Assembly (NCBI GenBank): GCA_963702425.1
Contig: CAVPCQ010000025.1
Location: 24,916 to 88,915, forward strand
Source: an uncultured Acidobacteriota bacterium
GTDB lineage: Bacteria; Acidobacteriota; Polarisedimenticolia; J045
Length of the DNA: 64,000 bases
Direction of reading: 5' to 3'
Within the stretch, counting starts at the first letter, position 1, and every line of letters begins with the position of its first letter. Below, piece by piece: positions 47,329 to 64,000 of this stretch. Both the position numbers and the translations under genes were made by a program. The notes below the pieces were generated by a model that saw nothing but the letters and a program-made list of their open reading frames with translations, made no database searches and was not told the origin of the DNA.

Positions 47329-47662
47329 GAGCCAATCCTCCTGTTTTCGAACTCGGCGTCGGGCGGTTAACGGGGAAGGTGTGTCCGGGGGGCTCCGGGA
47401 TCGCGGAGGAGCGCGAGGGGGCGCGGGGAGGCGGGGGGTAGCCGCCGGGTCGCGGCTCTCCGCGAGCTTTCTGGCGCGAGGCCGGCTGAGGTCCTGTCGG
47501 CGCCGGGGGCTTGAGCGCTCTGCTCCTCTCCGCGATAGTCAAGAGAGCCGGGCGGACGCCTCGCCCGGTTCCGCGTTCTCGGTGGCGCAGAAGAGAGCGT
47601 TCGTCCGGGAGACGGCGTCACCGTGGATCGGGGAGTTCGAAGAACCCCTCTGGCCCATTTCA
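47329..47662. repeat. Right-end repeat copy A1 (solo element end)
   Basis: GAGCCAATCCTCC..TTTTCGAACT...GGAAGGTGTG...GCCCATTTCA; homologous to copies at 50342, 55566, 61121 and 63984. Confidence 0.85.
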
Positions 47663-47698
47663 CCAGACCCGACAGAGGTTCGCGGAGAGGAGAGCGCT

Positions 47699-48002
47699 TT
47701 GAGCCAGCTCCTGATCCAGCAGTACCTAAACCAGCTTCAGGACCTCCGGAAGGTGGGCGGTACTCACCGCGAATCCGTGGTCCGGGAAGCCTTCAAGGAC
47801 CTCCTCAAGGGCTGGGCGAAGTCTCAGGAACTTATCTTCGTTCCCGAGTACGAGATCACCACGCCCGCAAAGGAACGGCGGTACGTCGATGGCGCTCTCC
47901 TGCATGCCCTCCGCGTGCCATTCGGCTACTGGGAGGCGAAGGACGAGAAAGACGATCTCGACGGCGAGATCGACACAAAGCTGCGGCGCGGCTACCCTCA
48001 GG
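47699..48002 (+). pseudogene. N-terminal fragment of a Type ISP/IIG-like restriction-modification (N6 methylase) gene, truncated at the element end
   Basis: SQLLIQQYLNQL...ESVVREAFKDLL...YVDGAL...FGYWEAKDEKDDLDGEI..KLRRGYPQ, ending abruptly at the TG terminus (48003). Confidence 0.7.
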
Positions 48003-48196
48003 TGAAGGCGGCCACCGATCTTGGGACGCGGCTGGACGCGGTTCTCGGCATCGCAAAGGTTGTCGCGAAGCTCACTCAGCGCGGCGAAATCGGGCCGAGC
48101 GTGAGCACAGCGACGGGAATCGCTTGTCGAGCGGCATGCCGGGCTGCTCGAGCGCAGACGGCGCCCCCGGCCGGAACAAGACCGCAGATACCTCCC

Positions 48197-49498
48197 TCAC
48201 GCCGCGCGGGTCAACAAGACGACGGGAAGGTGCGCTCGCCCTTCCAGGTACCGCACCTCGAGCGCGAGCCGCACGCCCGGGCGACCGCGCACGGGCGCCT
48301 GCGGCCGGGCGCAGCGCGAGGAGCGCGGCCATCGCGCCCGGGGTTCGAAGCGCGGCCGATGATGCGCCGGCCGGCGCCCGAAGTAGATCTCGTCGGGGGT
48401 CGCACCCGCCAGCCCGGCGTGCGGGCGCTGGCCGTTGTACCAGTCGGCGAAGAGCGACAGCTCCCGCCCGACGCTCCGCCACCGGACCGGCGCCAGCCAG
48501 CGCCGCACGCCTTCGTCCTTGAGCGTCCGGATGCAGCGCTCGATGAGCGCAATGCTGCCGTGCTTGCCGATCGCGCCGAAGCGCTGCCGGATCCTGGCGC
48601 GACGGCAACCGCGCCGGAACGATCGCGCCGTGAACTCACGTCCGCGATCCGTGATCAGGTGCCGCGGAGACCGCCCCGCCGCCCGGATCATGCCGGCGAG
48701 GAAGGCGCTCATCGCCTTGGCGGTGGGCCGGCCGCGAAACGCGCGGACGCCCATGATCCGCCGGGAGAAGTGGTCGACACCGACGGCGACCCAGCAGCAG
48801 AACGGCCAGCGCTGGGGAAGCGACCAGGGCAGCCACGGGATCCAGAACCCGGCGAGCGTCGGCACGGTGGTCAGGTCGACCAGCCAGATGTGATTCGGGC
48901 GCGACGACCGGATGCGGCATTCGCTCCAGACCGTCGCGACAGGCGCTACGCCTTGGGGCCGGCGTTTCAGCATCCGGCGGACGGTCGTCCGCCCGAGATG
49001 AAGCCCAGCGCGGGAGAGCACGGCCGCGATGCGCGCGGTCCCCATCGCGGGGCACAGCACCTTCAAGCGCCGAACGAGGTGCGCGACGAGGTCCGGGAAC
49101 TTGTTGACGGGCTCGGGCGTCTGGACGAGCGCGGAGGACCCGTCCTCGTCGAGCCGCATCATCCAGGAGGCGACGGTCGCCTCCGTGACGAAGAATCGCT
49201 CGGCGGTTTGCGCTGCCGACCAGCCCCGAGCGGCGCGGAGCTCAAGGATCGCGAGACGCTCCACCGCCGGGTAGTGCGGGCGGCGATGCGGCGGGACGCG
49301 CTCCAGGCGAGCGTCCTTGATGCGCAGTTCCTCGCGGAGCAGGGCCACCTCCTGCTCCAGTCGGACCGATGCAGCGACGCGATCGGTGGCCGTGGTCAGC
49401 GCGACGCGTGCGAGGGAGAGGGCGTGGACGATCGCGGCGCGGACAACTCGGGGCCAGCGGGAAGGGAGCGGAGCACAAGACCATTGCTCGACCGACAC
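48197..49498 (-). CDS. Integrase-core (rve) DDE transposase, IS481/IS3-like
   Basis: HTH; WLVDLT, ITDRGREF, IERCIRTLKDE, WYNGQRPHAGL..TPDE. Confidence 0.9.
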   Translation of the reverse strand: MSVEQWSCAPLPSRWPRVVRAAIVHALSLARVALTTATDRVAASVRLEQEVALLREELRIKDARLERVPPHRRPHYPAVERLAILELRAARGWSAAQTAERFFVTEATVASWMMRLDEDGSSALVQTPEPVNKFPDLVAHLVRRLKVLCPAMGTARIAAVLSRAGLHLGRTTVRRMLKRRPQGVAPVATVWSECRIRSSRPNHIWLVDLTTVPTLAGFWIPWLPWSLPQRWPFCCWVAVGVDHFSRRIMGVRAFRGRPTAKAMSAFLAGMIRAAGRSPRHLITDRGREFTARSFRRGCRRARIRQRFGAIGKHGSIALIERCIRTLKDEGVRRWLAPVRWRSVGRELSLFADWYNGQRPHAGLAGATPDEIYFGRRPAHHRPRFEPRARWPRSSRCARPQAPVRGRPGVRLALEVRYLEGRAHLPVVLLTRAA

Positions 49499-49584
49499 CA
49501 CACAACCTCCAAGAGGCGTGGACGATCTTGCCGACGTCACGCGAGCCCGATTTCGTCGAGCCTCGACATCGACGATGGCGCAGC

Positions 49585-49977
49585 TTAGGGCGAACGGCGC
49601 CGGCGGACTCGAATACGTCCGGGCTCGACGACGACGATCGGATCCGAGGGCGGCGACTGGGAGAGCGACAGCAACGCGCGGACGATGATGACCTTCAGGT
49701 CGGCGACAAGGACCGCGGTCGGGACGCGCACGAGCACGAAGCCGGGCACGCTCCGGCTGCCGGGGTCCCGCGGCGCGACCATCCCCACATCGCGCGTCAC
49801 GAGAATGCGGGAGGACGCGGCGGCGAGTTCCCGGACCAGGGCATCCGAACGCCCGCCGAGCGCGACATCGACCGCGTGCACCGCATCGAGTCCCGCATCC
49901 CGAAGGTCGGCCGCGAGCGAGCGCGGCAGATCCTCGTCGACCAGGAAGCGGGACCAGGCCGGGGAGACAGGCGCCAT
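49585..49977 (-). CDS. DUF5615 PIN-like toxin (VapC45-like)
   Basis: FLVDEDLPRS...LRDAG.DA....D..L....R.LVTRD. Confidence 0.8.
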   Translation of the reverse strand: MAPVSPAWSRFLVDEDLPRSLAADLRDAGLDAVHAVDVALGGRSDALVRELAAASSRILVTRDVGMVAPRDPGSRSVPGFVLVRVPTAVLVADLKVIIVRALLSLSQSPPSDPIVVVEPGRIRVRRRRSP

Positions 49978-49980
49978 CGT

Positions 49981-50214
49981 CTAGCCGACGGCGCGGACGG
50001 TCTCGTCGCCGAGCAGTCGCGCCGCGTAGCCGAGGGCGGCTCGGATGCCCTGCTCCGTGACGCCGTACTCGGCGCAGATCGTGGCCATGCTGTCGCCCGC
50101 GGCAAGATGACCCACGACCACCTCGACCGGCACGCGGGTGCCCTTGATCAGCGGCTTTCCGGCCTGGACCGCGTCGTCGATCACGATCCCGGGAGCAACC
50201 TCGGTGACGGCCAT
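49981..50214 (-). CDS. DUF433 antitoxin (VapB45-like)
   Basis: GKPLIKGTRVPV...LAAGDS...I..EY.VT...IRAALGY. Confidence 0.9.
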   Translation of the reverse strand: MAVTEVAPGIVIDDAVQAGKPLIKGTRVPVEVVVGHLAAGDSMATICAEYGVTEQGIRAALGYAARLLGDETVRAVG

Positions 50215-50676
50215 GCTCTCCTCCGCTGCGGGTGTCGATGCCGGCCCGCCCTTTCCGGGCTGCCGCTAACTCACAGCCCTGGTGCATGTTACGCCAGCTG
50301 CTCCTCGGCGGCCATCGGGTTCGAGGAGCGTTCCGAACGGGGAGCCAATCCTCCACTTTTCGAACTCGGCGTCGGGCGGTTGACGGGGAAGGTGTGTTCG
50401 GGGGGCGGCTCCTGGTTCCCGCAGCGGCGCGAGGGGGTGCGGGGAGGCGGGCGTTGGCCGGTAGGCGACGGCTCTCTGCGGGCAGCCGGGATCGGCGCGG
50501 TCGAGACTCTCGTCGGCGTCAGACCCTTGAGCGCTCTCTTCCTCTCCGCGACTGTCGAGAGAGCCGGGCAGACGCGCTGACCGACTCCGTGTAATCGGCA
50601 GCGAAGAGGGGAGCGTCCGGCCGGGAGACGGCGTTACCGGGACTCGCGGAGTCCGAAAAATCGCTAGCCCACTTCA

Positions 50677-50930
50677 CCCCGTCCAGGTCCTCGAGGACGA
50701 TCATCTCGTGGACGCCGCGCGCCGCGACCTCGGCGGCGGAGCCCGCCTGGAACGGGACGCCCGCGCGGACAAGCCGGTCTCTCATCGCCATGAGCGCAGC
50801 CCCGTCGGACCGGGGCTCGCCGACCTCAAGTCCCAGCAGATCCGTGGCGAAGGCGCGCCACGCGCCGAGGTCGCTGACCTCGAGGCCCAGGTACCCAAGC
50901 CATGCGGCCGTGCTCCTGGGCTTTTCCCGT
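50677..50930 (-). pseudogene. Extradiol dioxygenase/VOC N-terminal fragment, truncated by the element end
   Basis: LGYLGLEVSDLGAWRAFATDLLGLEV...RGVHEMIVLEDLDG, running into the terminus at 50676. Confidence 0.65.
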
Positions 50931-50931
50931 A

Positions 50932-52771: not shown

Positions 52772-53083
52772 CTGCGTTCTCCTCGGGAAACGAACGTACC
52801 GACGATCTGGGTCCCGTCACGGCGCCGCAGGCGACCATGCCCGCAGCCGATGGGAGCCTCGCCAGCGGCGGCGCCACAGTAGCACGGGTGTAGTGGTCCA
52901 GCGACTTTGGATCGCAGCCGGATGCGGTTCTCGCCGTTGCGAAGGCCGTGGCGACGCTCATTCGGCGCGGCGAAATCCGGCGGAGCGTCAGCACAGCGAC
53001 GGAGATCGCTCGTCAAGCGGCATGCTGGGCTGAGCGAGCGCACACGGCGACCTCGGCCGGAACAGAACCACGGATTCCCGCCC

Positions 53084-54385
53084 TCAGGCCGCGCGGGTCA
53101 GCGTGACGACGGGAAGGTGCGCTCGCCCTTGCAGGTACCGCACCTCGAGCGCGAGCCGCACGCCCGGCCGCCCACGGACCGGCGCCTGCGGCCGGGCACA
53201 CCGCGCGTCACGGGGCCATCGCGCACGGGGTTCGAAGCGCGGCCGATGATGCGCCGGCAGCCGCCCGAAGTAGATCTCGTCGGGGGTCGCACCCGCCAGC
53301 CCGGCGTGCGGGCGCTGGCCGTCGTACCAATCGACGAAGAGCGACCGTTCCCGCCCGACGCTGCGCCACCGGATCGGCGCCAGCCAGCGCCGCACGCCTT
53401 CGTCCTTGAGCGTGCGGATGCAGCGCTCGACGAGTGCGATGCTGCCGGGCTTGCCGATCGCGCCGAAGCGCTGGCGGATCGCGGCGCGACGACAGCCGCG
53501 CCGGAACGACCGTGCCGTGAACTCACGTCCGCGATCCGTGATCAGGTGCCGGGGCGCCTGCCCCGCCGCGCGGATCATGCCGGCGAGGAAGGCGCTCATC
53601 GCCTTGGCGGTGGGCCGGCCGCGAAACGCGCGGACGCCCATGATCCGCCGGGAGAAGTGGTCGACACCGACGGCGACCCAGCAGGAGAAGGGCAAGCGCT
53701 GGGGAAGCGACCAGAGCAGCCACGGGATCCAGAACCCGGCGAGCGTCGGGACGGTGGTCAGGTCGACCAGCCAGATGTGACTCGGGCGCGACGACCGGAT
53801 GAAGTGCTCGCTCCGGACCGTCGCGGCAGGCGCCACGCGACGGGGGCGGCGCTTCAGCATCCGGCGAACCGTCGTCCGCCCGAGATGGAGGCCGGCGCGG
53901 GAGAGCACGGCGGCGATCCGCGCCGTCCCCATCGCGGGGCAGAGCACCTTCAGCGGCCGCACGATGTGTGCAACGAGGTCCGGGAACCTGTTCACGGGCT
54001 CGGCCGTCTGGACGAGCGCGGAGGGCCCGTCCTCGTCGAACCGCATCATCCAGGACTCGACGGTCGCCTCCGCGACGAAGAACCGCTCGGCCGTCTGCGC
54101 TGCCGACCAGCCGCGAGCCGCGCGGAGCTCGAGGATCGCGAGGCGTTCCACCGCCGGGTAGTGCGGGCGGCGATGCGGCGGGACGCGCTCCAGGCGAGCG
54201 TCCTTGATGCGCAGCTCCTCGAGGAGCAGGGCCAGCTCGTGCTCCAGGCGGACGGAGACGGCGACGCGATCGGTGGCCGCAAGCAGGGCGACCCGGGCGA
54301 GAGAGAGGGCATGGAGGATGGCCGAGCGGGCCTGCCGAGACCAGCTTGGGGGCAGTCGAAGCTTGGTACCGCGGTTGCCCGACAC
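53084..54385 (-). CDS. Integrase-core (rve) DDE transposase
   Basis: Highly similar to 48197..49498; GTG start after GAGGAGG. Confidence 0.9.
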   Translation of the reverse strand: MSGNRGTKLRLPPSWSRQARSAILHALSLARVALLAATDRVAVSVRLEHELALLLEELRIKDARLERVPPHRRPHYPAVERLAILELRAARGWSAAQTAERFFVAEATVESWMMRFDEDGPSALVQTAEPVNRFPDLVAHIVRPLKVLCPAMGTARIAAVLSRAGLHLGRTTVRRMLKRRPRRVAPAATVRSEHFIRSSRPSHIWLVDLTTVPTLAGFWIPWLLWSLPQRLPFSCWVAVGVDHFSRRIMGVRAFRGRPTAKAMSAFLAGMIRAAGQAPRHLITDRGREFTARSFRRGCRRAAIRQRFGAIGKPGSIALVERCIRTLKDEGVRRWLAPIRWRSVGRERSLFVDWYDGQRPHAGLAGATPDEIYFGRLPAHHRPRFEPRARWPRDARCARPQAPVRGRPGVRLALEVRYLQGRAHLPVVTLTRAA

Positions 54386-54543
54386 GATCGAACCCTCCTC
54401 GGAGCGCCCCTCCTCGACCTCGCTGCGGAGCGAGACAAGTCGCTGCAGGGACGGGACATAGAGGCGCGGAGAGAGATCCGGAGAAGCGCTGATCCACCGC
54501 ACCGCTCGGGGGCGCCGCTGGACGGCTTGGCCTGCAATGCATA

Positions 54544-54557
54544 CACTGATGTCAGTG
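54544..54557. promoter_or_regulatory. Short palindrome, possible antitoxin operator
   Basis: CACTGA-TG-TCAGTG just upstream of the RHH antitoxin RBS. Confidence 0.4.
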
Positions 54558-54576
54558 CTTTCAAAGGAGATACAGG

Positions 54577-54825
54577 ATGGCGAGCCTGACCATTCGAAAG
54601 CTCGATGAGAAGACAAAGACGCGACTGCGCGTGCGCGCCGCCCGGCACGGTCGCTCGATGGAGGAAGAGGCCCGCTCGCTCCTGCGGTCGGCGCTCGGCG
54701 AGGACGCCGTTCCACGGGGCAGCCTGGCCGATTCCATCCGGGCCCGCTTTCGCCGACTGGGCGGCGTCGAGTTCGAGATCCCCTCTCGCGAGCCGATCCG
54801 TGATCCGCCGAGGCCGGGCCGATGA
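54577..54825 (+). CDS. FitA-like ribbon-helix-helix antitoxin
   Basis: MASLTIRKLDE..K.RLRVRAARHGRSMEEEAR. Confidence 0.9.
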   Translation: MASLTIRKLDEKTKTRLRVRAARHGRSMEEEARSLLRSALGEDAVPRGSLADSIRARFRRLGGVEFEIPSREPIRDPPRPGR

Positions 54826-55241
54826 TCATCCTCGACACGAACGTGCTCTCGGAGCTGATGAAACCGAAACCCGCCGCGCCGGTCGTGGCCTGGATCGGCG
54901 AGCAGCCCACGGCCGGCCTGTACACGACGGCCATCACCCAGGCCGAGATCCTCCACGGCCTCATGCTCCTTCCGGCCGGTCGCCGTCGGCGTGCGCTCGA
55001 GGCCGCTGTGACCTCCATGTTCGCGGAGGACTTCGAAGGCCGGATCCTTGGGTTCGGCTCCGATGCAGCCCCGCCCTACGCCAGGATCGCGACCGACCGG
55101 CGCCGAGCGGGACGGCCCATCTCGCAGTTCGATGCGCAGATCGCGGCGATCGCGTTGACCACGGGCGCGACCGTCGCCACCCGCAACGTGGACGACTTCG
55201 AAGGCTGCGGCGTCAAGGTCGTGAATCCCTGGCAGCCCTAG
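54822..55241 (+). CDS. vapC: VapC/FitB PIN-domain toxin
   Basis: IILDTNVLSE, AEI, FDAQIAAIA, ATRNVDDF, VNPW. Confidence 0.93.
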   Translation: MIILDTNVLSELMKPKPAAPVVAWIGEQPTAGLYTTAITQAEILHGLMLLPAGRRRRALEAAVTSMFAEDFEGRILGFGSDAAPPYARIATDRRRAGRPISQFDAQIAAIALTTGATVATRNVDDFEGCGVKVVNPWQP

Positions 55242-55886
55242 ACGAGCGTAATCGGGGCGTTCGGCCTCGATGCCGCCTCCATGGCGCCCGCCCGGATTGC
55301 CTTCTTCGCTTCCTCCCGGCGGGTGCATTCGGCCAGGGGCTTTCAGACAGCGGGAGATCTCGTTCTCGTCGTCGGCGGAAGGAGACGAGCGACTTCGGAG
55401 TTCCCGGGGCCGGCGTTCCATCGTTGCAGAGGCGAGCGATACGTCGACGAGGGAGCGATGATCAATCGGAAGGCCTCGAAGTCCACGAAAGCAATCTGCT
55501 GCAGCGAAAAGGGATGCCCCTCGGGGCGAACCTGGCCAACCAGTTTGGGATGCGCCCCGAACGGGGAGCCAATCCTCCACTTTTCGAACTTCGGGCGGGG
55601 CGGTTGACGCGGAAGGTGTGTCCGGGCTGCTCCGGGCTGCCCGAGTGGCGCGTGGGCGCGCGGAAAGCCGGGCGGCTGTGGACGGGTCATGGCTCTCTGC
55701 AACCGGCCAGGTCCAAGTGCGGCCAAGCTCCCGGTCGGGCCCAGGGGCTGGAGCGCTCTCTTCCTCTCAGCGTGAGTCGAGAGAGCCGCGCGAGGGCGCA
55801 TCGACTGTCTCACCGACGCTCCTCGCGTGGAGAGAACCAAGTTCCTGAGAATGAGGGCCTTGGAGCGGAGACGGGGACTCACTCAC

Positions 55887-57055
55887 AAGACCGCTGGCAC
55901 AGTACACCGGCGCGCGGATCGTGCTGATCAAGGTCGGCGGGACGATCGGCCTGACGCGCGACATCCTGGTGCGCGAGGCCAACAGCTACCTCACCGTCGC
56001 CGGCCAGACGGCGCCGGGGGACGGGATCCAGCTCAAGAGCTACGGCATCCAGCTCCGCGAGGGGGCGCACGTCGTCGTCGTCGACCACGTCTCCGCCGAG
56101 TGGGCGGTCGACGAGAACGTCAATGTCTGGAGCTGGGCCGAGAACGTGAACTTCCAGTGGTGCCTGATCGCGGAGGGATCGCTGACCGGTCACCCGAAGG
56201 GACCGCACTCGATGGGGCTGCGCCGGGGCGCACCCGCGGATCACGCTCTCGGTCCACCACTCGCTGCTGGCCCACAACAGCGGCCGCAACCCGCTGCTTC
56301 AGGACAACAGCGAAGGGGTGTACGACTTCCGCGACGACGTCGCCTACGATTGGCAGAACAACAACGCCGGCGACACGAAGCTGGGTACGCGAACCAACTA
56401 CGCCGGCAACCTCTACCTGAAGGGCCCGAGCAGCAGCCCGGTCGAGGACTCCGTCTTCTACGTCCCCGATCGCACCAACAGCGAGAGCGTCCGGCCATGG
56501 GTCGACGGCAACCGCAGCCCGCGCTGCCCGTCGGGCTGCACCGACGAATGGGACATCGGCGTCTGGACCTGGAAGAACGGCACGCACTTCGACGCCGACC
56601 CCGCGCTCTACCGCGTTTTGCAGCCGTTCCTGGCGCCGGCGGTCGCGGCGCTGCCGCGGCGCGACGCGGTCGACACGCGCATCGTCACCGACGTGCGCAA
56701 TCGCACCGGCGCGGTCGGGATCGGCAGCGGGCACCCGGCGCTGCGCTCCGCCGCGTGGCCGCCGGACCTGGACCACGACGGGATGCCCGACGCCTGGGAG
56801 CAGCTCCACGGGCTGAACCCCCTCGACGCGCGCGACGCGCGCGGTGACTTCAACGGCGACGGCGACACCGACATCGAGGGGTTCCTCAACAATCGCGACC
56901 CCGCGGCGCCGGCCCCGTCCACCGCGGCGGGAGCGGTGCCCGACGGCCACGCCGTGCCGGGCCTGTCGCTGACGCTGGTCCGCGCCGCGGGCGGAGCGCC
57001 CGGCCGCGCTGGAGCCGTGCCTGCCGCAGGAGGTCGCGGGCTGCCCGTAGGCTGA
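55887..57055 (+). pseudogene. Pectate-lyase-like protein lacking its N-terminus, frameshifted
   Basis: VGGTI.L, TVAGQTAPGDGI, VDHVSAEWAVDEN, HSMG, DLDHDGMPDAWE..HGLNP. Confidence 0.7.
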
Positions 57056-57118: not shown

Positions 57119-58870
57119 ATGCGCGTGATCCCCGTGCGGCTCGTACTCGTGGCCGCGGTCGTGGCCTGGGGAGGGTTGTGCGCGCTGGCCGACCTCGACG
57201 TCGCGACGCTCACTCTGGCGACCGATGCGCCCACGTCGATCGCCTGGAGCCTCGCGCCGGACGCGACCAGCTACGGTCTCTATCGCGGCACGATCACGGC
57301 CGCCGGATTCCCCCCGTTGTACGACCACCGCTGCCTGGCGACCGAGATCCCCGAAGCCGAGGCCAAGGAGGGGGATGTGCCGCGGCCGGGCGAGGCGTTC
57401 TACTACCTCGTCACCGGCCTCGCGCGAAACGAGGCGGGTCAGATCGTCGCCGGCAGCGTCGGGCGGGACTCCTCCGGACGCCTCCGGCCCGAGGGGCCGG
57501 TCTACACCTGCGGCCAGCGCCTGTTCGTCGATCCCGCGGCCGGCGGGGCGGGGGATGGCCGCTCGTGGGCGGACGCCTGCACCTCCGTGAGTGCCGCGAT
57601 CGACGCGCACGAGAGCGAAGCGCGCGGGCTCGAGCTGTGGGTGCGCGGGAGCGTGACCGAGGAGGCCGAGGTGCCGTCGCGTTGGGAGAAGCGCGGCTAC
57701 GCGATCCTGGGCGGCTTCGCGGGGACCGAGTCGCTCGCCTGGGAGCGCTCACCAGCGGATCACCCGACGCTCCTGACCGGCCTCGAACGCCGCTATCTCG
57801 CGCGCTGCATCAACGGCTGCGCGCTGCTGCTGGACGGGCTCGAGCTCGCAGGGCCCTCATACCCGGTCATGATCTACTTCCCCGCCACCTCGCAGCTCGA
57901 GCTGCGCCACGTTCTGTCGGCCGTGCCGGTCTCCTTCGGCGCCGGCAACGGCGGCGGCGGCGGGCTCAAGACCGGGCGCCTCGAGATCGTCGACTCCGAG
58001 ATCGCCGCGTCGGCCGGCTACGCCCTGCGCATCTTCGCCTACGAGCAGTGGGACGTGCAGGCGCGCCTCTATCGCAGCCGCTTCGCGGGCGGCACCGACG
58101 CAGCGATCCGAATCGACGCCTGGTCCGACCTGACGCACGCGCGGATCGACGTCGACGTGGAGTCCTGCCAGATCGAGGGGGGCGGGCGCGGGATCTGGGC
58201 AGACGCCTGGAACATCTCACCGTACTACGGGGCCCGGATCCGGCTGCGCGTCGCGTCGTCGATCGTCACCGGGACCGCGACCGCGACCGACACGATCGAT
58301 CTCGACGTCCGACAGCGAGGCAACGAGGTTTTCGACGGCGCGTCGCCCACGACCATCGAGGGCCTGCTCGTCGGGGACACGGTCCACGGCGGAGGGGGGA
58401 CGGGTATCTCCCTGCACGCCTCACGGGCCCTCGCGGACCCCCGCGTCATCGCTCGCTGCCGGGTCGAGCTGTGGGACGACCTGCTCACCGGCCACGCTGC
58501 CTACGGCGTCTCCGAGACCGCCTCGACGCCCGGCGGGGAGGTGTCGGCGCAGGCGACGTTCGTCGGCAACGGTTTCTTCGACAACGGCGCCGCCTACCTG
58601 CGGAACGGCGTGGAGGTCTTCCCGACCGGCGACGAGGTCAATGCCTGCGCGGGGGCGCGGGACAACTTCGAGGCCGATCCGCTGTATGCCGGCGCGCCGG
58701 CCGGGGACCTGCACCTGGCCCCCGGGTCGCCGGCGATCGATCGCGGCCACCTGGACGCTCCCCGTCCCGCGGCCCGCGACGTGGACGGCGACGCGCGGTC
58801 GCTCGACGGGGACGGCGACGGCACTGCCGTGCCCGATGTGGGGGCGGACGAGGCGAGCGGTCCGCGCTGA
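57119..58870 (+). CDS. Secreted beta-helix protein with choice-of-anchor-Q-like C-terminus
   Basis: Signal peptide; FVD..A.G..DGRSWADA; GGFAGTE; DPLY....DLHLAPGSPAIDRG...D.DG..R...PDVGADE. Confidence 0.75.
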   Translation: MRVIPVRLVLVAAVVAWGGLCALADLDVATLTLATDAPTSIAWSLAPDATSYGLYRGTITAAGFPPLYDHRCLATEIPEAEAKEGDVPRPGEAFYYLVTGLARNEAGQIVAGSVGRDSSGRLRPEGPVYTCGQRLFVDPAAGGAGDGRSWADACTSVSAAIDAHESEARGLELWVRGSVTEEAEVPSRWEKRGYAILGGFAGTESLAWERSPADHPTLLTGLERRYLARCINGCALLLDGLELAGPSYPVMIYFPATSQLELRHVLSAVPVSFGAGNGGGGGLKTGRLEIVDSEIAASAGYALRIFAYEQWDVQARLYRSRFAGGTDAAIRIDAWSDLTHARIDVDVESCQIEGGGRGIWADAWNISPYYGARIRLRVASSIVTGTATATDTIDLDVRQRGNEVFDGASPTTIEGLLVGDTVHGGGGTGISLHASRALADPRVIARCRVELWDDLLTGHAAYGVSETASTPGGEVSAQATFVGNGFFDNGAAYLRNGVEVFPTGDEVNACAGARDNFEADPLYAGAPAGDLHLAPGSPAIDRGHLDAPRPAARDVDGDARSLDGDGDGTAVPDVGADEASGPR

Positions 58871-59107
58871 GGGGAGCCTCAAGCGGGCGCGCCAGCCCGC
58901 GGACAGGCCGGCTGTTCTGGGCCACCGATCTTGGATCGCAGCCGGGCGCGGTTCTCACCGTCGCAAAGGCCGTCGCGACGCTCACTCAGCGCGGAGAAAT
59001 CCGGCCGAGCGTCAGCACAGCGACGGAGATCGCTCTTCGAGCGGCATGCTGGGCTGCACGAGCGCACACGGCGATCTCGGCCGGAACAGAACCACGGATG
59101 CCCGCCC

Positions 59108-60389
59108 TCAGGCCGCACGAGTCAGCGAGACGACGGGAAGGTGCGTTCGCCTTTCCAGGTACCGCACCTCGAGCGCGAGCCGCACGCCCGGCCGCCCGCG
59201 GACCGGAGCCTGCGGCCGGGCACAGCGCGAGGAGCGCGGCCATCGCGCCCGGGGTTCGAAGCGCGGCCGATGATGCGCCGCCGGCCGCCCGAAGTGGATC
59301 TCGTCGGGCGTCGCACCCTCCAGCCCGGCGTGCGCGCGCTGACCGTCGTACCAGTCGGCGAAGAGCGACAACTCCCGCCCGACGCGCCACCGGACCGGCG
59401 CCAGCCCCCGCCGCACGCCTTCCTCTCTTGAGCGTCCGGATGCAGCGCTCAATGAGCGCAGTGCTGCCGTGCTTGCCGATCGCGCCGAAGCGCTGGCGGA
59501 TCCCGGCGCGACGGCAGCCCCGCCGGAACGATCGCGCCGTGAACTCACGCCCGCGATCCGTGATCAGGTGGCGCGGCCCCTGCCCCGCCTCCCGGATCAT
59601 GCCGGCGAGGAAGGCGCTCATCGCCCGGGCGGTGGGCCGGCCGCGAAACGCGCGGACGCCCATGCTCCGCCGGGAGAAGTGGTCGACACCGACGGCGACC
59701 CAGCAGCAGAACGGCCAGCGCTGGGGAAGCGACCAGGGCAGCCACGGGATCCAGAACCCGGCGAGCGTCGGGACAGTGGTCAGGTCGACCAGCCAGATGT
59801 GGTTCGGGCGCGACGACCGGATGCGACGCCCGCTGCGGACCGTCGCGGCAGGCGCCACGCGCCGGGGCCGCCGCTTCAGCATCCGGCGGACGGTGGTCCG
59901 TCCGAGATGAAGCCCGGCGTGGGAGAGCACGGCGGCGATCCGCGCCGTCCCCATCGCGGGGCAGAGCACCTTCAGCCGCCGCACGAGGTGCGCGACGAGG
60001 TCCGGGAACTTGTTCACGGGCTCGGGCGTCTGGACGAGCGCCGATGGTCCGTCCTCGTCGAGCCGCATCAGCCAGGAGGCGACGGTCGCCTCCGTGACGA
60101 AGAATCGCTCGGCGGTTTGCGCTGCCGACCAGCCCTGAACGGCGCGGAGCTCGAGGATCGCGAGGCGTTCGACCGCGGAGTAGTGCGGGCGGTGACGCGG
60201 CGGGACGCGCTCCAGGCGAGCGTCCTTGATGCGCAGTTCCTCGCGGAGCAGGGCCACCTCATGCTCCAGGCGGACGGAGACGGCGACGCGGTCGGTGGCC
60301 GCAAGCAACGCGATCCGGGCCAGGGAGAGGGCGTGGAGAATCGCGGAGCGGGCGCGGCGGGGCCAGGTTCGGGGAAGCGCGGGCTCCAT
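59108..60389 (-). CDS. Integrase-core (rve) DDE transposase, frameshift near 59425
   Basis: MEPALPRTWPRRARSAILHAL; D, D, E motifs; C-terminus in ORF 59108..59548. Confidence 0.88.
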
Positions 60390-60625
60390 ATCGAGATCCT
60401 CCCCCGGCATGGGATCCGCCAGTCGGGAAGCGGATCGGGCGGCGCCGGAGCATCGTGCAACGAGGCCGGCGGGATCGGTACCGGCCGTGCCTGGCGTGTC
60501 TAACGAAAGAACGGATGCGGTATGATCACCAGACCGGTACGCGCCCGTGCGGCGCGACGCGGATACTGCAGGGGAGCCTGATCCCCCGGGGAGTGCCGGG
60601 CGCAGCCCGGACGCGAGAGGCCAAG

Positions 60626-60865
60626 ATGATCCGAGCTTATACCGATGCGGCGCTGGAGCGGGCTCGATACACGCAGCTCGAAGATGGCTCGTACTGCGCG
60701 GAGGTACGCGGCCTCCGCGGGGCGATCGCGACGGGCGCGACCCTGGAGTCCTGTCGTTCACAGCTGCAGGAGGTCGTCGAGGAGTGGATCCTCGTCCGCG
60801 TCGCTCGAGGGCTCGACATTCCAGCGCTCGGGGGCGTGAGAATCAGGATCCGGAAGGCAGGCTGA
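60626..60865 (+). CDS. hicB: HicB-family antitoxin (short)
   Basis: LEDGSYCAEV.GL.G..ATG.TLE.CR..L.EVVEEWI......G..IP. Confidence 0.88.
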   Translation: MIRAYTDAALERARYTQLEDGSYCAEVRGLRGAIATGATLESCRSQLQEVVEEWILVRVARGLDIPALGGVRIRIRKAG

Positions 60866-61083
60866 TGCCTTCTTGGCGGCCGGTGAAACGCCGCGAGCTG
60901 GTCGCCGCCTTGCGGCGGGTGGGATTCACGGGGCCGTACTCGGGTGGTCGGCACGAGTTCATGCAGAAGGACGACCTGGTTCTGACGATTCCGAATCCCC
61001 ACGGCGGGGACATCGGGATCACGCTGTTGAAGATCATCCTCAGGCAGGCAGGGATCACAAGAGCGCGGTGGGAAAAGTTGTAG
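60865..61083 (+). CDS. hicA: HicA-family mRNA interferase toxin
   Basis: RELVAALRRVGF...GGRHEFM...IPNPH..DI...LL..IL.QAGI. Confidence 0.9.
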   Translation: MPSWRPVKRRELVAALRRVGFTGPYSGGRHEFMQKDDLVLTIPNPHGGDIGITLLKIILRQAGITRARWEKL

Positions 61084-61696
61084 GGCTGGCAGTCGTCGTT
61101 TGAGATGCGTTCCGAATGCCGAGCCAATCCTCCAGTTTTCGAACTTCGGGCGGGGCGGTTGACGGGGAAGGTGTGTCTGGGGGGCTCCCGGTTCCCGCAG
61201 TGGCGCGAGGGGACGCGCGAAGGCGGGCGCCGGCCAGGAGGTGACGGCTCTCTGCGGGCAGCCTCGACCGGGCGCGGCCGAGGCTCTCGTCGGCGCCAGG
61301 CCCCTGAGCGCGCTCTCTCTCTGCGACAGTCGAGAGAGCCAGGAAGACGCGTCGCCTGACCCCGTGTTTTCGACGGCGAAGAGGGGAGCGTCCGGCCGGG
61401 AGACGGCGTTACTGCGAGTCACGGAGTCAGAGGAATCGCGGGCCCACTTCACCTGCTTGGGAACGCAACTCGTTGAAGGGCAAGGCGGACGAGGTATTGG
61501 CGAGGGACGGGGCGCTCGGGGTCCATCCCGGGGAACGCCGTGAGGGACGGGACCTTCATCTAACTCAGCAGAATACACTGGTTTGTTACTTTCTTCAAGA
61601 CTCCTTAGGACCTACTGCTGAATTGACGGGGGGACCCAGCGATCTCGCTCAAACTGGGCATCCCGGAGGTGACGATGCGGCGTTCACGGATATCGC

Positions 61697-61734
61697 CCGT
61701 TCACGATTCGTGTACAATAGTGAATCGTGAACGG
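61697..61734 (+). promoter_or_regulatory. Inverted-repeat operator flanking a TACAAT -10 box upstream of abiEi
   Basis: CCGTTCACGATTC-gtgTACAATagt-GAATCGTGAACGG. Confidence 0.75.
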
Positions 61735-61793
61735 ACCTCCACGGACTGTTCATCTCAATCCACTCGTTCACGGAACGTGAACAGGCCAGCTAG

Positions 61794-62831
61794 GTGAACA
61801 CAATGGGACTCCACGAACAGAATGAGAACCGCATCCTTGAGGCGGCCCTGGCGGCCTGCGAACGGGTTACCGGCTTGCTCTGCCGTGTCATCCAGCTCGA
61901 ACCTCGAATCACGACTGCATGTCGCGCGGACGCACTCATCGAGATTCGAAACGGTCCCCGACAGTACCGCTTCGCGGTCGACGTCAAGAACGTGGACCGG
62001 GTGGCCGCGCTTGGTCACGTCCAAGCCCGACTGATGGCGTGCCCTGAGCCAGGTCTTGTCGTTGTGAAGTACATGACCGAAGAGCTAGCCGACAACTGTC
62101 GTCGTCTGGAACTCAACTTCATCGACACGGCAGGCAACGCCTATCTCAAGGCTGACGGACTCACGGTCTTCGTAGTAGGTAGGAAACCCCGCACCGCCGA
62201 GCCGAGACCAACATTTCGAGCCTTCAATGCCACCGGACTCCGAGTGATCTTCGCCCTTCTTTGTCGGCGAGAGCTTCTTCAAGCGCCATACCGAGAAGTC
62301 CAGAGAGAGGCTGGGGTTGCATTGGGAACAGTCGGCTGGGTACTGAACGACCTGCACAACAGAGGCTATCTCGTTCACCAAGAGAACGGGAATCGATTCA
62401 TGGACGCGGAACGGCTCGCTGCACAATGGGTAGAACACTATCCACTCAAGTTGCGCCCCAAGTTGAATGCCAAGCGCTTTCTAGCCACCGATCCGACATG
62501 GTGGCATCGCTTCGACCCCTTGGAATACGCTGCGTACTGGGGCGGTGAAGTCGGCGCAGATCGACTAACAGGCGATCTGCGACCCGAGCACATTACGATC
62601 TACGCTCGCGAGGATCCCAAGGAAATGATACTGCGAAACCGGCTGCGGGCTGACATACACGGGAACATAGAGATCCTCGATACATTCTGGGACTTCCCGC
62701 CGACAGGGGAGCATCCGGATGTTGTACCTCCGCTGCTCGTATACGCTGACCTAATGGCTACGGTGGACCAGCGCAACCATGAGGTTGCTCGGCGAGTTTA
62801 CAAACGACATGTTGGCCCCGCTCTCGATTAG
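61794..62831 (+). CDS. Type IV TA AbiEi-family antitoxin
   Basis: FIDTAGNAYL, HTH (APYREV...GVALGTV), WGGEVGA, VPPLLVYADL; lower GC than the flanks. Confidence 0.85.
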   Translation: MNTMGLHEQNENRILEAALAACERVTGLLCRVIQLEPRITTACRADALIEIRNGPRQYRFAVDVKNVDRVAALGHVQARLMACPEPGLVVVKYMTEELADNCRRLELNFIDTAGNAYLKADGLTVFVVGRKPRTAEPRPTFRAFNATGLRVIFALLCRRELLQAPYREVQREAGVALGTVGWVLNDLHNRGYLVHQENGNRFMDAERLAAQWVEHYPLKLRPKLNAKRFLATDPTWWHRFDPLEYAAYWGGEVGADRLTGDLRPEHITIYAREDPKEMILRNRLRADIHGNIEILDTFWDFPPTGEHPDVVPPLLVYADLMATVDQRNHEVARRVYKRHVGPALD

Positions 62832-63687
62832 ACCGGACTGCCCCATCGACGGGATCCAGCTAGCGATCCTGTGTGGTGTCCGCGAGGCATGCCTAGCAAC
62901 GGAGATAGACTACCTGGTCGCAGGAGCGACCGCGCGCGACTTGATTCTGTTTCACGTCCACGGTCGACGAATCAGGCGACGAACACAGGATATCGATATC
63001 GGGATCGCCATTCCAAGTTGGAGTGAGTTCCAGCGCCTCAAGGACGCGCTTACAGCACAACCGTGCTTCGTCACGGGAGAGGTACCACACGCTGTCTATT
63101 ACGCAGCAGCGCCCGACATGATCCCGTTTCGAATCGACATCATCCCATTTGGCGGCGTGGAGAACGAAGGCGGGCAAATCCTCTGGCCGCCAAGCGGTGA
63201 CACAGTGATGGGAGTGCGAGGGTTTGACGTCGCCCTCGCCCACTCAGTGCTGATTCAGCTTCCAGAAAACGGCCTCGTACGCTCAGCTTCGTTGGCGGGA
63301 TTGGTTCTCCTGAAACTGTTCGCGTGGCTTGATAGGGGCAAATTCACCGGAGTTGCGAAAGATGCGCTAGACCTGGCCGTGATCCTTGTCGAATACGCCG
63401 ACGCAGGTCAGCTAGATCGGTTATACGGTGAACGCAACGACCTGATGGTCACGACCGACTATGACGTGACCTCAGCGGGTGCCCTGCTCCTTGCAGACGA
63501 TGTGAGGAGCATCACGCCAACCGGACTCCTTGACGAGTTGTACCGGGAACTCGTACAGGAAGACGCTCTCGACCACATACAAAACCAGATCGCGCTGAAG
63601 CAACTCCGAGCGGGCAGGGAAGTGGAGGAGATCGAGGAGACACGCCTACTCCGGCGGTTCTGGGGCCGGCTGTTCGACTCAATGTGA
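62809..63687 (+). CDS. AbiEii-family nucleotidyltransferase toxin
   Basis: VAGATARD, RRTQDIDIG, IDIIPFGG, LLKLFAW.DR..KDA.D. Confidence 0.87.
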   Translation: MLAPLSIRPDCPIDGIQLAILCGVREACLATEIDYLVAGATARDLILFHVHGRRIRRRTQDIDIGIAIPSWSEFQRLKDALTAQPCFVTGEVPHAVYYAAAPDMIPFRIDIIPFGGVENEGGQILWPPSGDTVMGVRGFDVALAHSVLIQLPENGLVRSASLAGLVLLKLFAWLDRGKFTGVAKDALDLAVILVEYADAGQLDRLYGERNDLMVTTDYDVTSAGALLLADDVRSITPTGLLDELYRELVQEDALDHIQNQIALKQLRAGREVEEIEETRLLRRFWGRLFDSM

Positions 63688-63960
63688 AGTGCGCTAGGTG
63701 CGCCGCGAAAGGTCCGTCGTTCCGGCAGGTGCAGGTCCCGTCCCGGCAGCGGTGCTGGAGGTCGGACCTTGCGACGGGGAGATCGCGGTTTCTTCGCGAA
63801 TGCACCGATCGGGCGCCGGGTCGCAGGGCGGCGCGGCGAGGCGAAGGAGAAGGCTGGCACGCCGGTCGGGCATCAGGGCTCTACGAAACGCTCGGCGACG
63901 GCGCTAGGCCAAGTTGCTGCAAAAGACAGAGTTGCCTGCCGTGCGAGCCCGGCCGGGGCG

Positions 63961-64000
63961 GTTTGGGATGAGTTCCGATCACGGAGCCAATCCTCCGCTT
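63961..64000. repeat. Start of a fifth right-end repeat copy (cut by the window edge)
   Basis: GTTTGGGATGAGTTCCGATCACGGAGCCAATCCTCC matches copies at 55545 and 61098. Confidence 0.8.

What the first reader, a model, noticed from the sequence alone, without database searches (positions are those of the whole stretch)
47329..64000. Transposon family with a swappable toxin-antitoxin cassette slot
Seen: three related elements (48003-50676, 52889-~55885, 58913-61451) share one layout. It runs TG terminus, ~190-bp left end, minus-strand rve DDE transposase, variable slot, ~335-bp right end, CA terminus. The slot holds an unrelated TA system each time (DUF433/DUF5615, FitA/VapC, HicB/HicA), in either orientation. 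A fourth system, AbiEi/AbiEii, lies just before another right-end copy. Known: IS derivatives with passenger genes exist, and TA modules can stabilise mobile DNA or block phage. Inference: this is a transporter-IS family that captures or exchanges TA modules at a fixed position, building a defence or addiction array. I do not recognise it as a described family.
Basis: partly seen in the sequence, partly recalled or inferred. Interest (0 to 1): 0.9.

Follow-up and report, generated by a model that had tools for sequence, protein, structure and literature searches.

The report
Toxin-antitoxin cargo transposon, tRNA-derived end
Three copies of a small jumping gene each carry a different toxin-antitoxin pair between the transposase gene and an end piece that matches the DNA behind a tRNA gene, which makes this a clear but not revolutionary variant of the known cargo-carrying insertion sequences.

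Summary
Three elements (48003-50676, 52889-55906, 58913-61451) share the layout IRL, about 190 bp, minus-strand HTH+rve transposase, slot, about 370-bp right end (RE), IRR. The slots hold DUF433/DUF5615, FitA/VapC and HicB/HicA. AbiEi/AbiEii precedes a fifth RE copy that the contig end cuts.

New points:
- The backbone is a widespread IS of about 1.65 kb, distantly IS481/IS3-like, with its own inner IRR about 158 bp upstream of the transposase gene. Element 2 still has that inner IRR.
- The RE is not ordinary IS DNA. It is the 3' part of tRNA-Asn(GTT) plus about 320 bp of its trailer, as at the rdgB-tRNA-Asn locus of this genus, ending in an IRR-like tip. It occurs only in this genus.
- Across 5 genomes and 12 metagenome contigs, 5 of about 15 cargo types are clear TA pairs and 2 are TA-like. 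The rest include a STAND NTPase, small membrane proteins and unknowns.
- Arrays and cargo changes look like head-to-tail accretion, adjacent deletion and recombination between shared flanks. No cassette recombinase was found.

Verdict: a new variant of a known kind (transporter IS; TA cargo as in Tn3). The scan earlier noted, on other DNA, an IS1 cargo transposon with a built-in tRNA (e1-5261248).

The parts
47262..47662 (+). Solo right end RE0: a decayed full-length tRNA-Asn copy (about 47262-47334) plus trailer-derived RE body, ending in the IRR tip at 47662. No cargo; citrate synthase (45706-47094, minus) lies upstream.
   Evidence: orthologous locus in a sister genome. The start coordinate 47262 and the full-length reading come from comparing the sequences by eye.
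48003..50676 (-). Element 1 (2674 bp), IRL tip 48003 to IRR tip 50676
48197..49462 (-). Element 1 transposase, 421 aa, uninterrupted frame (HTH_23/28 + rve + rve_3)
49585..49977 (-). DUF5615 PIN-like putative toxin, same direction as the transposase gene and 122 nt upstream of it
49981..50214 (-). DUF433 putative antitoxin
50310..50676 (+). RE1: degenerate tRNA-Asn 3' fragment, conserved core (GAGCCAATCCTCC at 50342), trailer-like body, IRR
52889..55906 (-). Element 2 (3018 bp). Absent from the orthologous site in two sister genomes, where homology stops exactly at 52888.
53084..54349 (-). Element 2 transposase, uninterrupted frame, 90% aa identity to element 1
54484..54501 (+). Degenerate inner IRR of element 2 (..GCGCTGATCCACCGCA), at the position of the IRR of cargo-less relatives
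54577..54825 (+). FitA-like RHH antitoxin
54822..55241 (+). VapC (PIN) toxin
55242..55533 (+). Extra conserved non-coding stretch ('RE-ext'), shared in part with a copy that carries DUF4258/MqsA-like cargo in a sister genome. Function unknown.
55534..55906 (+). RE2 with IRR tip at 55906
58913..61451 (-). Element 3 (2539 bp). A 93% identical full-length copy lies on contig C30.
59108..60371 (-). Element 3 transposase, broken by a frameshift near 59424-59437
   Evidence: (2-bp spacing difference)
60626..60865 (+). HicB (UPF0150) antitoxin
60865..61083 (+). HicA toxin; its stop codon directly abuts the tRNA-like fragment
61089..61451 (+). RE3 with IRR tip at 61451
61794..62831 (+). AbiEi, first gene of a cargo+RE module that has no transposase of its own and follows element 3's IRR by 342 nt
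62779..63687 (+). AbiEii nucleotidyltransferase toxin
63684..64000 (+). RE-ext (63684-63960) plus the start of RE4 (core at 63984), cut by the end of window and contig

Best explanation
This is a genus-restricted transporter-IS lineage derived from a widespread single-ORF DDE insertion sequence of about 1.65 kb, distantly IS481/IS3-like.

Backbone. The basal IS has 16-22-bp terminal inverted repeats (TGTAGTGGTCCAnCGA). Its right IR lies about 158 bp upstream of the transposase gene.

Outer right end. In this lineage the transposase also uses a second IRR further out. That IRR is the tip of a 370-bp segment that matches the 3' part of the tRNA-Asn(GTT) gene plus about 320 bp of its trailer at the rdgB-tRNA-Asn locus. 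The most likely origin is that an IS next to that locus used an IRR-like sequence at the end of the trailer as a surrogate end, in the way ISEcp1 mobilises neighbouring DNA. Whatever lies between the IS and this borrowed end moves with it.

Cargo. It is usually one small operon and very often a toxin-antitoxin pair.

How cargo variety and arrays arise. Ordinary IS processes are enough:
- new copies land head-to-tail at or near resident IRRs;
- deletions that start at an IS end remove the neighbour's transposase and leave cargo+RE modules strung behind one IS;
- homologous recombination between the shared flanks (IS on one side, RE on the other) reshuffles cargo and ends.

Why TA pairs predominate. 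They are compact, self-regulated and hard to delete, and they probably stabilise the element. In two cargo types (DUF433/DUF5615 and MNT/HepT) they sit 70-120 nt upstream of the transposase gene in the same direction and may be co-transcribed with it.

Shown: the anatomy, the tRNA-Asn correspondence, the unit character of IRL to outer IRR, the junction types and the cargo census. Inferred: the direction and mode of the first capture, use of the outer IRR by the transposase, IR-targeted insertion, and the role of the TA pairs.
For: Backbone:
- Pfam HTH+rve. NCBIfam best match IS481, 121 bits.
- 77 related loci in Acidobacteriota, Planctomycetota, Myxococcota and others. At least 2920 homologues at E<=1e-30.
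- I gave 34 of those 77 loci. 24 of the 34 show the IRL motif. Of those 24, 6 have an IRR 140-235 bp upstream (element lengths 1619-1709 bp), 2 (L027, L039) have both an inner IRR at 158 bp and an outer one at 2156 or 2682 bp, and 16 show none within 5 kb.
- Element 2 keeps an inner IRR, and decayed genomic copies end there.

RE corresponds to the tRNA-Asn trailer:
- ARAGORN finds a complete tRNA-Asn at the RE-like locus in 4 of 4 sister or own genomes, and none in 11 other RE loci or in the window.
- rdgB-tRNA-Asn synteny is family-wide.
- The RE occurs in 5 of 5 genomes of the genus. In the other 18 genomes of the family there are only two 40-nt weak hits.
- The RE resembles the basal right end only in its last 25-35 bp.

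Unit mobility:
- Element 3 and C30 are 93.2% identical over 2540 nt, from IRL to IRR, with different flanks.
- Element 2 is absent from the orthologous site in two genomes, with the break exactly at the IRL tip.
- A metagenome contig joins another flank exactly at 48002/48003 (table 7, run X2).

Accretion and deletion, four different junctions:
- element 3 IRR, 342 nt, AbiE-RE4;
- C30 IRR, then the 9-nt tip of an inner IRR, then FitAB-RE;
- in G009, an element-3-like IRR, then transposase scraps, inner IRR and FitAB;
- in G008, an RE cut to 140 nt fused to the first 240 nt of a neighbour's transposase gene.

Reshuffling:
- The FitAB cassette is 95-97% identical in 4 places but sits next to REs only about 53-70% alike.
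- On the RE tree, starred branches force at least 2 lineages each for FitAB and for HicBA.

Cargo census. PIN domains are rare genome-wide: 10 matches in 5.1 Mb, 2 of them in these elements.
Against: - No target-site duplication was found for any of the three elements, for C30a, or for 8 relatives with clear IRs. This is unusual for a DDE transposase and leaves the transposition chemistry unconfirmed.
- The right flank of element 2 is not homologous to the empty site beyond 6 nt, so no clean occupied/empty pair exists.
- The direction of origin is not settled. Outgroup tRNA-Asn trailers are unrelated to the RE. Synteny among the four native loci breaks exactly at the RE tip. The native copies differ more from each other (78-86%) than neighbouring genes do between genomes (90-97%). 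All three points would also fit an RE that came from the element.
- The RE tree is poorly resolved: 10 of 17 inner branches are open, and a single native clade is not rejected (p-AU 0.22).
- A stretch of about 55 nt just behind the tRNA end is nearly invariant in all copies while the rest of the RE drifts to 70-80%. The model does not explain this constraint.
- 16 of 24 relatives with an IRL have no detectable IRR, so the share of cargo forms in the wider family is unknown.
Confidence: 0.6

Rival explanations
1. Docking-site model. The tRNA-like fragment plus the invariant core of about 55 nt is an attachment site. A site-specific recombinase (a tyrosine integrase of the tRNA-targeting kind, or the transposase itself) inserts and swaps cargo there, so the element works like a small integron for TA and defence modules.
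For: - The core is the most conserved part of every copy, native loci included.
- The tRNA remnant starts at the anticodon stem in RE0, in its orthologue and in element 3, which is the extent I recall for anticodon-loop att sites (recalled, not tested).
- One copy (G010, next to citrate synthase) is a hybrid: true tRNA sequence up to the T-loop, RE-type sequence after it.
- One contig in each of two metagenome runs joins DUF433 cargo to another RE variant, with the switch inside the core at 50367 (table 5).
- 6 of 12 outgroup contigs break within 650 nt after tRNA-Asn, as expected at a hotspot for mobile DNA.
Against: - No tyrosine recombinase lies on the contigs that hold the window, the native tRNA-Asn locus or C30. 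There are 10 matches genome-wide, all elsewhere.
- None lies on the contigs that hold the native loci of three sister genomes. Only one truncated and one sub-threshold fragment lie near any RE copy.
- Cargo lies on the tRNA-5' side of a single core and is not flanked by two cores.
- Homology between copies of one element ends at the IR tips, not at cores.
- The length of the tRNA remnant varies between copies, which fits decay better than a fixed att site.
Confidence: 0.15
2. Reverse origin. The RE, tRNA-like segment included, is old element DNA. The sequence now found behind tRNA-Asn in this genus was put there by recombination between the tRNA gene and an element's tRNA-like segment, so the 'native' locus is the derived state.
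For: - Trailers of tRNA-Asn in 11 outgroup loci are unrelated to the RE, and some carry ordinary terminators.
- The four native REs end where synteny ends.
- G010's native copy has a good IRR (16 of 18) while those of G000 and G008 do not.
- IS left-end remnants lie 2 kb and 6 kb behind the native RE in G010.
Against: - An element must first have acquired a tRNA-Asn-like segment from some genome, so this only moves the capture back in time.
- Non-coding trailers are not expected to be conserved between genera.
- RE0 carries a whole decayed tRNA-Asn copy, which fits capture of a complete gene plus trailer.
Confidence: 0.15
3. Island background. TA genes are simply common in this variable region, and their position beside the IS copies has no bearing on the element.
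For: - The region is a patchwork of mobile DNA.
- Not all cargo is TA.
Against: - The same cargo travels with the same backbone to other contigs and other genomes: HicBA in 3 places, FitAB in 4, DUF433/DUF5615 in 5.
- Slots hold one operon with little spare DNA.
- The DNA between elements encodes a cyclase, a dehydrogenase and unknown proteins, not TA pairs.
Confidence: 0.05

Closest known systems
Transporter IS (tIS) of the IS481 family, e.g. ISArsp12 / ISPfr21 (PMC6305408, passages read)
   Same: A single rve-type DDE transposase gene plus a few passenger genes inside one pair of IRs. The size is similar (2.6 kb against 2.5-3.0 kb).
   Different: Those carry an ArsR regulator and a permease, not TA pairs. 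The transposase here scores below the IS481 cut-off. One end here matches a tRNA gene's 3' part and trailer. Many different cargos occupy one position.
TA gene pairs in Tn3-family transposons (Lima-Mendez et al. 2020, PMC7157771; abstract and sections 8 and 14 read)
   Same: Several unrelated type II TA families (PIN, HEPN and others) sit at one fixed position next to the transposition genes. They were acquired several times and exchanged by recombination, and a role in stable invasion was proposed.
   Different: Tn3 elements have a transposase of about 1000 aa, a resolvase and a res site, and the TA pair sits by res. Here the element is a small IS without a resolvase, and the TA pair sits between the transposase gene and a borrowed end.
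ISEcp1-type transposition units (PMC6061673, search listing and abstract only; mechanism recalled)
   Same: An IS mobilises adjacent DNA by pairing its left end with a weakly similar sequence beyond its own right end. Element 2, L027 and L039 show an inner plus an outer right end.
   Different: ISEcp1 is an IS1380-family element, picks a new surrogate end each time and leaves 5-bp duplications. Here one surrogate end became a fixed, conserved part of the lineage, and no duplications were seen.
Mobile insertion cassettes (MICs) and integron cassette arrays with TA cassettes (recalled; MICs are mentioned in PMC7157771, figure 2 legend)
   Same: Cargo modules without a transposase are strung behind one another and bounded by element ends. 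TA pairs occur as recurrent cassettes.
   Different: The cargo+RE modules here have only one IR-bearing end. There is no IntI integrase and no attC.
IS3-family copy-out-paste-in transposition and insertion next to resident IRs (PMC3299598 and PMC2909936, abstracts and one passage; Loot et al. 2002 seen only as a title in a reference list, content recalled)
   Same: Head-to-tail copies at or near a resident IRR and deletions that start at an IS end are what this chemistry can produce.
   Different: Neither circles nor IR-targeting were shown for this IS. The protein is a single ORF with no frameshift.

Membership tests
IS481 family | Single-ORF transposase with N-terminal HTH and rve DDE core | tested here: met
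   Pfam HTH_23/HTH_28 + rve + rve_3 in one frame of 421 aa
IS481 family | Scores above NCBIfam's curated cut-off for IS481 transposases | tested here: not met
   NF033577: 121.3 bits against a cut-off of 224. IS3 NF033516: 94.4 against 160. The best plasmid relatives are 26-31% identical IS3-family genes.
IS481 family | Short terminal IRs beginning TG(T) and a target-site duplication | tested here: inconclusive
   IRs were found. No duplication was found at 3 window elements, C30a or 8 relatives.
Transporter IS (tIS) | Passenger genes lie inside the IRs and move with the IS | tested here: met
   Element 3 and C30 are 93% identical from IRL to IRR, HicBA included, in different flanks. The same cargo and backbone occur in sister genomes.
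Type II / IV toxin-antitoxin modules | Adjacent or overlapping small gene pair with recognised toxin and antitoxin domains | tested here: met
   Five pairs have both partners above Pfam cut-offs. Genes are intact.
Type II / IV toxin-antitoxin modules | Toxin arrests growth and the antitoxin neutralises it | not testable with these tools
   Needs expression tests.
Integron-like cassette platform | Tyrosine recombinase next to the array and a recombination site at each cassette border | tested here: not met
   No PF00589 match on C25, C29 or C30, and none on the contigs holding the sister genomes' native loci. Cargo is bordered by one core, not two.
ISEcp1-like capture of adjacent DNA | The IS's own right IR is retained inside, with a second IR-like end beyond the cargo | tested here: met
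   Element 2 inner IRR at 54484-54501 and outer at 55906. L027 and L039 have both.
ISEcp1-like capture of adjacent DNA | The whole unit is flanked by a fresh target duplication | tested here: not met
   None seen.
Structured RNA in the right end | Covarying base pairs or an Rfam match | tested here: not met
   Rfam found nothing in any RE at E<=1. RNAalifold covariation term +1.15 on 9 copies; the long GGCTCTCT/AGAGAGCC stem never varies.

The most novel reading that the evidence does not exclude
The tRNA-Asn-derived fragment and its invariant 55-nt core are a working recombination site carried by a transposon. The IS would then offer a portable copy of a chromosomal island hotspot, into which TA and defence modules are inserted and exchanged. 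That would make it an integron-like collector built on an insertion sequence, one that spreads its collection by transposition.
Probability: 0.15. Interest if true: 0.8.

Novelty: new variant of a known kind. Interest (0 to 1): 0.5.

Why it matters
It extends to a small IS what was described for Tn3-family transposons: unrelated TA modules that recur at one fixed place beside the transposition gene. This strengthens the idea that TA pairs serve mobile DNA itself.

It gives a traceable example of how an IS can turn a piece of chromosome (a tRNA gene's end and trailer) into a permanent transposon end.

It shows how arrays of TA and defence-like genes can grow by ordinary IS processes.

It also flags a large, mostly uncultured-lineage IS group that current IS models do not name.

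Tried and rejected
RNA in the right end. Rfam at E<=1 found only a chance miRNA hit outside any RE. RNAalifold on 9 copies gave no covariation support. Rejected.

RE as a diverged copy of the IS's own right end or of the transposase 5' region. Local alignments against three basal right ends gave z<=2, except over the last 25-35 bp. Rejected.

Integrase-driven exchange. PF00589 searches in the own genome and four sister genomes found none on the relevant contigs. Not supported, but MAGs are incomplete.

Target-site duplications. Searched by eye and by offset at 3+1 elements and 8 relatives; none found. The only empty site matches on the left side alone.

RE-ext. It does not align with the native rdgB-tRNA spacer, and it has no other copies beyond those listed. 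Unexplained.

Multiple independent captures from the native locus. The RE tree cannot tell (p-AU 0.22). I left out of that tree the copies shorter than about 190 nt (L103, L088b, RE4, the C17 piece, the L132 piece).

PADLOC. No significant hit for 10 cargo proteins; the best were AbiEii at E 3.7e-4 for the C37 nucleotidyltransferase and a 9e-4 hit. I therefore make no claim of anti-phage defence.

Promoter scan of 47200-50800. 0 sigma-70-like sites and 2 terminator-like sites, one of them the tRNA-end hairpin of RE0. Not informative for this phylum.

Read laying. Only short Logan contigs were available. They confirm the junctions at 50676 and 52888/9 in run X4, which may be the source sample and so is not independent. 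They show another flank at 48002 in X2. No IRR-IRL circle junction was listed. Depth, holes and habitat are not used as evidence.

The census rests on my own ORF calls (GC3-filtered in part) and 7 family searches. Small or atypical genes may have been missed, and unknown cargos may still be TA pairs.

Supplementary files of papers were not opened. Table S and Fig. S2 of PMC7157771 may list TA positions that bear on the comparison.

Literature searches found no paper on an IS481- or IS3-like IS with TA cargo or with a tRNA-derived end. That is what these five searches show, not proof of absence. ISfinder and TnCentral could not be queried.

Full report
WHAT IS THERE. The window is G000:C25:24916-88915, about 70% G+C. 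The repeat finder gives three copies of a left-end plus transposase block and five copies of the start of a right-end block.

The ends:
- IRL tips are at 48003, 52889 and 58913.
- IRR tips are at 50676, 55906 and 61451, with a further solo tip at 47662.
- IRL and the reverse complement of IRR agree as TGwAGnnGGCCAnCGA.

Each element has a minus-strand gene with HTH_23/HTH_28, rve and rve_3 domains. The frame is uninterrupted in elements 1 and 2 and frameshifted in element 3.

The slots hold:
- DUF433 + DUF5615 (minus strand);
- FitA-like RHH + PIN (plus strand);
- HicB/UPF0150 + HicA (plus strand).

AbiEi/AbiEii lies between element 3's IRR and a fifth right-end copy, which is cut by the contig end. 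The copy at 47297-47662 follows citrate synthase and has no TA before it. Between the elements lie a cyclase, a short-chain dehydrogenase and two proteins without Pfam hits.

THE BACKBONE IS A COMMON, SMALLER IS. NCBIfam ranks IS481 first (121 bits, cut-off 224) and IS3 second (94 bits, cut-off 160). Among 72,556 plasmids the best relatives are 26-31% identical IS3-family genes.

The protein family is large. 77 loci in MAGs of Acidobacteriota, Planctomycetota, Myxococcota and others encode relatives. At least 2920 proteins reach E<=1e-30 among the 8000 candidates scored, with a gap between a close clade (78-92% identity) and the rest (<=63%).

I examined 34 of the 77 loci, those with a near-full-length match and some flank. 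24 of them show the conserved IRL motif 160-250 bp after the stop codon. Of those 24:
- 6 have a matching IRR 140-235 bp upstream of the start, giving elements of 1619-1709 bp, two of them with perfect 20-22-bp IRs;
- 2 (L027, L039) have both such an inner IRR and a better or equal outer IRR, 2156 or 2682 bp upstream;
- 16 show no IRR within 5 kb.

Element 2 of the window keeps a degenerate inner IRR (tip at 54501). Several decayed copies elsewhere in the genome end at that position. Elements 1 and 3 have lost it.

THE RIGHT END MATCHES THE tRNA-Asn 3' END AND TRAILER. A profile of six RE copies finds 9 copies in the genome, plus the cut one at the window's end, and copies in two close MAGs. 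It finds the RE in 5 of 5 genomes of the genus. In the 18 other genomes of the family there are only two 40-nt weak hits.

One genomic copy (C29) starts inside a complete tRNA-Asn(GTT) gene. The same rdgB-tRNA-Asn-RE arrangement is present in three sister genomes. ARAGORN finds no tRNA in 11 other RE-bearing loci or in the window.

Alignment shows that every RE copy begins with a more or less decayed 3' part of this tRNA and ends that part with GGAGCCA. A nearly invariant stretch of about 55 nt follows, then a body that has drifted to 70-85% identity, then the IRR-like tip. RE0 is preceded by what reads as a whole decayed tRNA-Asn copy.

rdgB-tRNA-Asn synteny holds across the family. In other genera, homology stops at the tRNA's last base and the trailers are unrelated. 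The RE resembles the basal IS right end only in its last 25-35 bp.

CARGO CENSUS. In the five genomes of the genus I count 24 RE copies that still have their inner border:
- 4 native loci;
- 2 without cargo (one orthologous locus next to citrate synthase);
- 5 with DUF433/DUF5615;
- 3 with FitA/VapC;
- 3 with HicB/HicA;
- 1 with AbiEi/AbiEii;
- 1 with MNT/HepT;
- 1 with a weak DUF4258 + MqsA-like pair;
- 1 with a DUF6036 nucleotidyltransferase plus a 234-aa unknown;
- 2 with unknown small proteins;
- 1 interrupted by an ISL3 transposase.

A scan of metagenome contigs with the core motif returned 15 contigs. 12 of them carry the RE, and 10 of those have 400 nt or more on the cargo side:
- 2 MNT/HepT, one of them with the transposase start next to it;
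- 1 native locus;
- 1 nSTAND1 NTPase;
- 2 with the same 142-aa unknown, one of these with an AraC-type regulator further upstream;
- 1 small membrane protein;
- 3 unclear.

By distinct cargo type, that is 5 clear TA pairs, 2 TA-like, 1 STAND NTPase, 1 IS insertion and about 6 unknown, out of about 15. L027, a Terriglobia relative with a different outer end, carries a weak YoeB-like + HTH_3 pair plus a DUF4261 protein. L039 carries what read as an ABC ATPase, a permease and a TlpA-like protein. That reading is by eye and was not scanned.

TA pairs are therefore strongly over-represented for slots of about 1 kb. PIN, for example, has only 10 matches in 5.1 Mb, 2 of them in these elements. The enrichment figure itself is an inference, not a computed test. 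TA pairs are not the only cargo. PADLOC recognises none of the window's cargo.

MOBILITY, ARRAYS AND RESHUFFLING. Evidence that the unit moves:
- Contig C30 holds a copy 93.2% identical to element 3 over 2540 nt, from IRL to IRR, with HicBA and with different DNA on both sides.
- Element 2 is missing from the orthologous cyclase/dehydrogenase locus of two sister genomes, where homology (95-97%) stops exactly at 52888.
- Short metagenome contigs bridge the 50676 and 52888/9 junctions in one run. In another run, a different flank is joined exactly at 48002/48003.

Cargo+RE modules without a transposase always follow another element's IRR, and the junctions differ:
- Element 3 IRR, 342 nt, then AbiE-RE4 (window).
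- C30 IRR, then the last 9 nt of an inner IRR, then FitAB-RE. The same unit sits behind the RE0 orthologue in G010, whose RE is nearly identical to C30's, so this is one event that was later moved by recombination.
- In G009, an element-3-like IRR is followed by two scraps of an element-2-like transposase gene, its inner IRR and FitAB.
- In G008, an MNT/HepT element's RE is cut after about 140 nt and fused to the first 240 nt of the transposase gene of a DUF433/DUF5615 element.

These are the products expected from head-to-tail neighbours and from deletions that start at or near an IS end.

The FitAB cassette is 95-97% identical in four places, yet its REs differ widely. On a 20-row RE tree, starred branches force at least two RE lineages for FitAB and two for HicBA.

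In the DUF433/DUF5615 and MNT/HepT types, the TA genes lie 70-122 nt upstream of the transposase gene in the same direction. In the other types they are divergent.

WHAT DID NOT HOLD UP:
- No Rfam family and no covariation in the RE.
- No tyrosine recombinase on the relevant contigs of five genomes.
- No target-site duplications anywhere. Another first-stage note on this stretch said the same.
- The right flank of element 2 does not match the empty site.
- The RE tree cannot say whether native copies are one clade (p-AU 0.22).

MECHANISM. Shown:
- An IRL-to-outer-IRR unit that includes cargo.
- An inner IRR where the basal IS ends.
- An outer end that corresponds to the tRNA-Asn 3' part and trailer.
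- Several independent tandem/deletion junctions.
- Mosaic cargo/RE combinations.

Inferred:
- An IS beside the tRNA-Asn locus first used an IR-like sequence at the trailer's end as a surrogate right end, as ISEcp1 does. The weak tip of the G000 and G008 native copies (10 of 18) may be the original state.
- The lineage then kept this end.
- New copies tend to land by resident IRRs.
- Adjacent deletions and recombination between the IS on one side and the RE on the other create arrays and swap cargo.
- TA pairs persist because they resist deletion and stabilise the element.

The invariant 55-nt core, the missing duplications and the break of synteny exactly at the native RE tip are not explained. 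They keep two rivals alive: a working recombination site at the core, and an element-to-chromosome origin of the native RE.

COMPARISON AND VERDICT. Transporter ISs with passengers are known in the IS481 family (ISArsp12; PMC6305408 passages). Several TA families at one position inside the transposition module, gained repeatedly and exchanged by recombination, are described for Tn3-family transposons (PMC7157771, sections 8 and 14). Capture through a surrogate end is known for ISEcp1 (PMC6061673, listing and abstract; mechanism recalled).

What is new here:
- the combination in a small, unassigned IS group;
- the fixed tRNA-derived end;
- the string-like growth of cargo+RE modules.

The scan's earlier notes on an IS1 cargo transposon with a built-in tRNA (e1-5261248) and on a gene scrap carried in a mobile module (e1-1524130) are analogous. 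I did not test them.

I rate this a new variant of a known kind, interest 0.5.

Noticed in passing
window 61452-61508; L117 3470-4969 (G010:C2): A repeat family of about 1.1 kb has dozens of 80-93% identical copies on contigs C17, C19, C23, C32 and others. A 57-nt end piece of it abuts element 3's IRR, and a full copy follows the empty site of element 2 in a sister genome.
   Followed up: partly
L139, L142, L145, L146, L148, L150 (outgroup genomes of the family): 6 of 12 outgroup contigs that hold rdgB-tRNA-Asn end within 650 nt after the tRNA, one of them at the very next base. This suggests repeated or mobile DNA behind tRNA-Asn in other genera too.
   Followed up: partly
L011, L013, L016, L017, L027, L039, L040, L054: Relatives of this IS with clear, even perfect, terminal repeats show no target-site duplication. 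Flanks often read ..GG on the left and CC.. on the right.
   Followed up: partly
window 61454-64000: The AbiE module is much poorer in G+C (about 59-66% per 2 kb) than the rest of the window (about 70-75%), as expected for recently imported DNA.
   Followed up: no
L165 384-2150 (metagenome contig): An nSTAND1 NTPase of at least 588 aa (134 bits) sits directly on the cargo side of an RE copy. It is a defence-like cargo that is not a TA pair.
   Followed up: partly
L099 29-1294 (G009:C16): An ISL3-family transposase gene lies directly upstream of an RE copy, so a second IS family has hit the same spot.
   Followed up: no
window 56318-57055 and 57119-58870: Two co-directional genes (245 and 583 aa) between elements 2 and 3 have no Pfam match. 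A 69% identical paralogous stretch lies on C32, and weaker ones occur in sister genomes.
   Followed up: no
window 55242-55533 and 63684-63960; L090, L102, L099, L106: A conserved non-coding stretch of about 270 nt ('RE-ext') precedes the tRNA-like fragment in a subset of copies that carry different cargo. It has indels, no Rfam hit, and no match to the native rdgB-tRNA spacer.
   Followed up: partly
L133 2761-4777 (G009:C6): An intact element-1-type copy with DUF433, DUF5615 and a 434-aa transposase in one direction, with gaps of 3 and 82 nt. It looks like a three-gene operon.
   Followed up: partly
G010:C2:669202-669441 and G009:C7:160205-160390: A truncated tyrosine-recombinase fragment (47 bits) lies about 1.1 kb beyond a cut RE copy. 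A sub-threshold fragment (24 bits) lies 80 nt from an RE tip piece.
   Followed up: no
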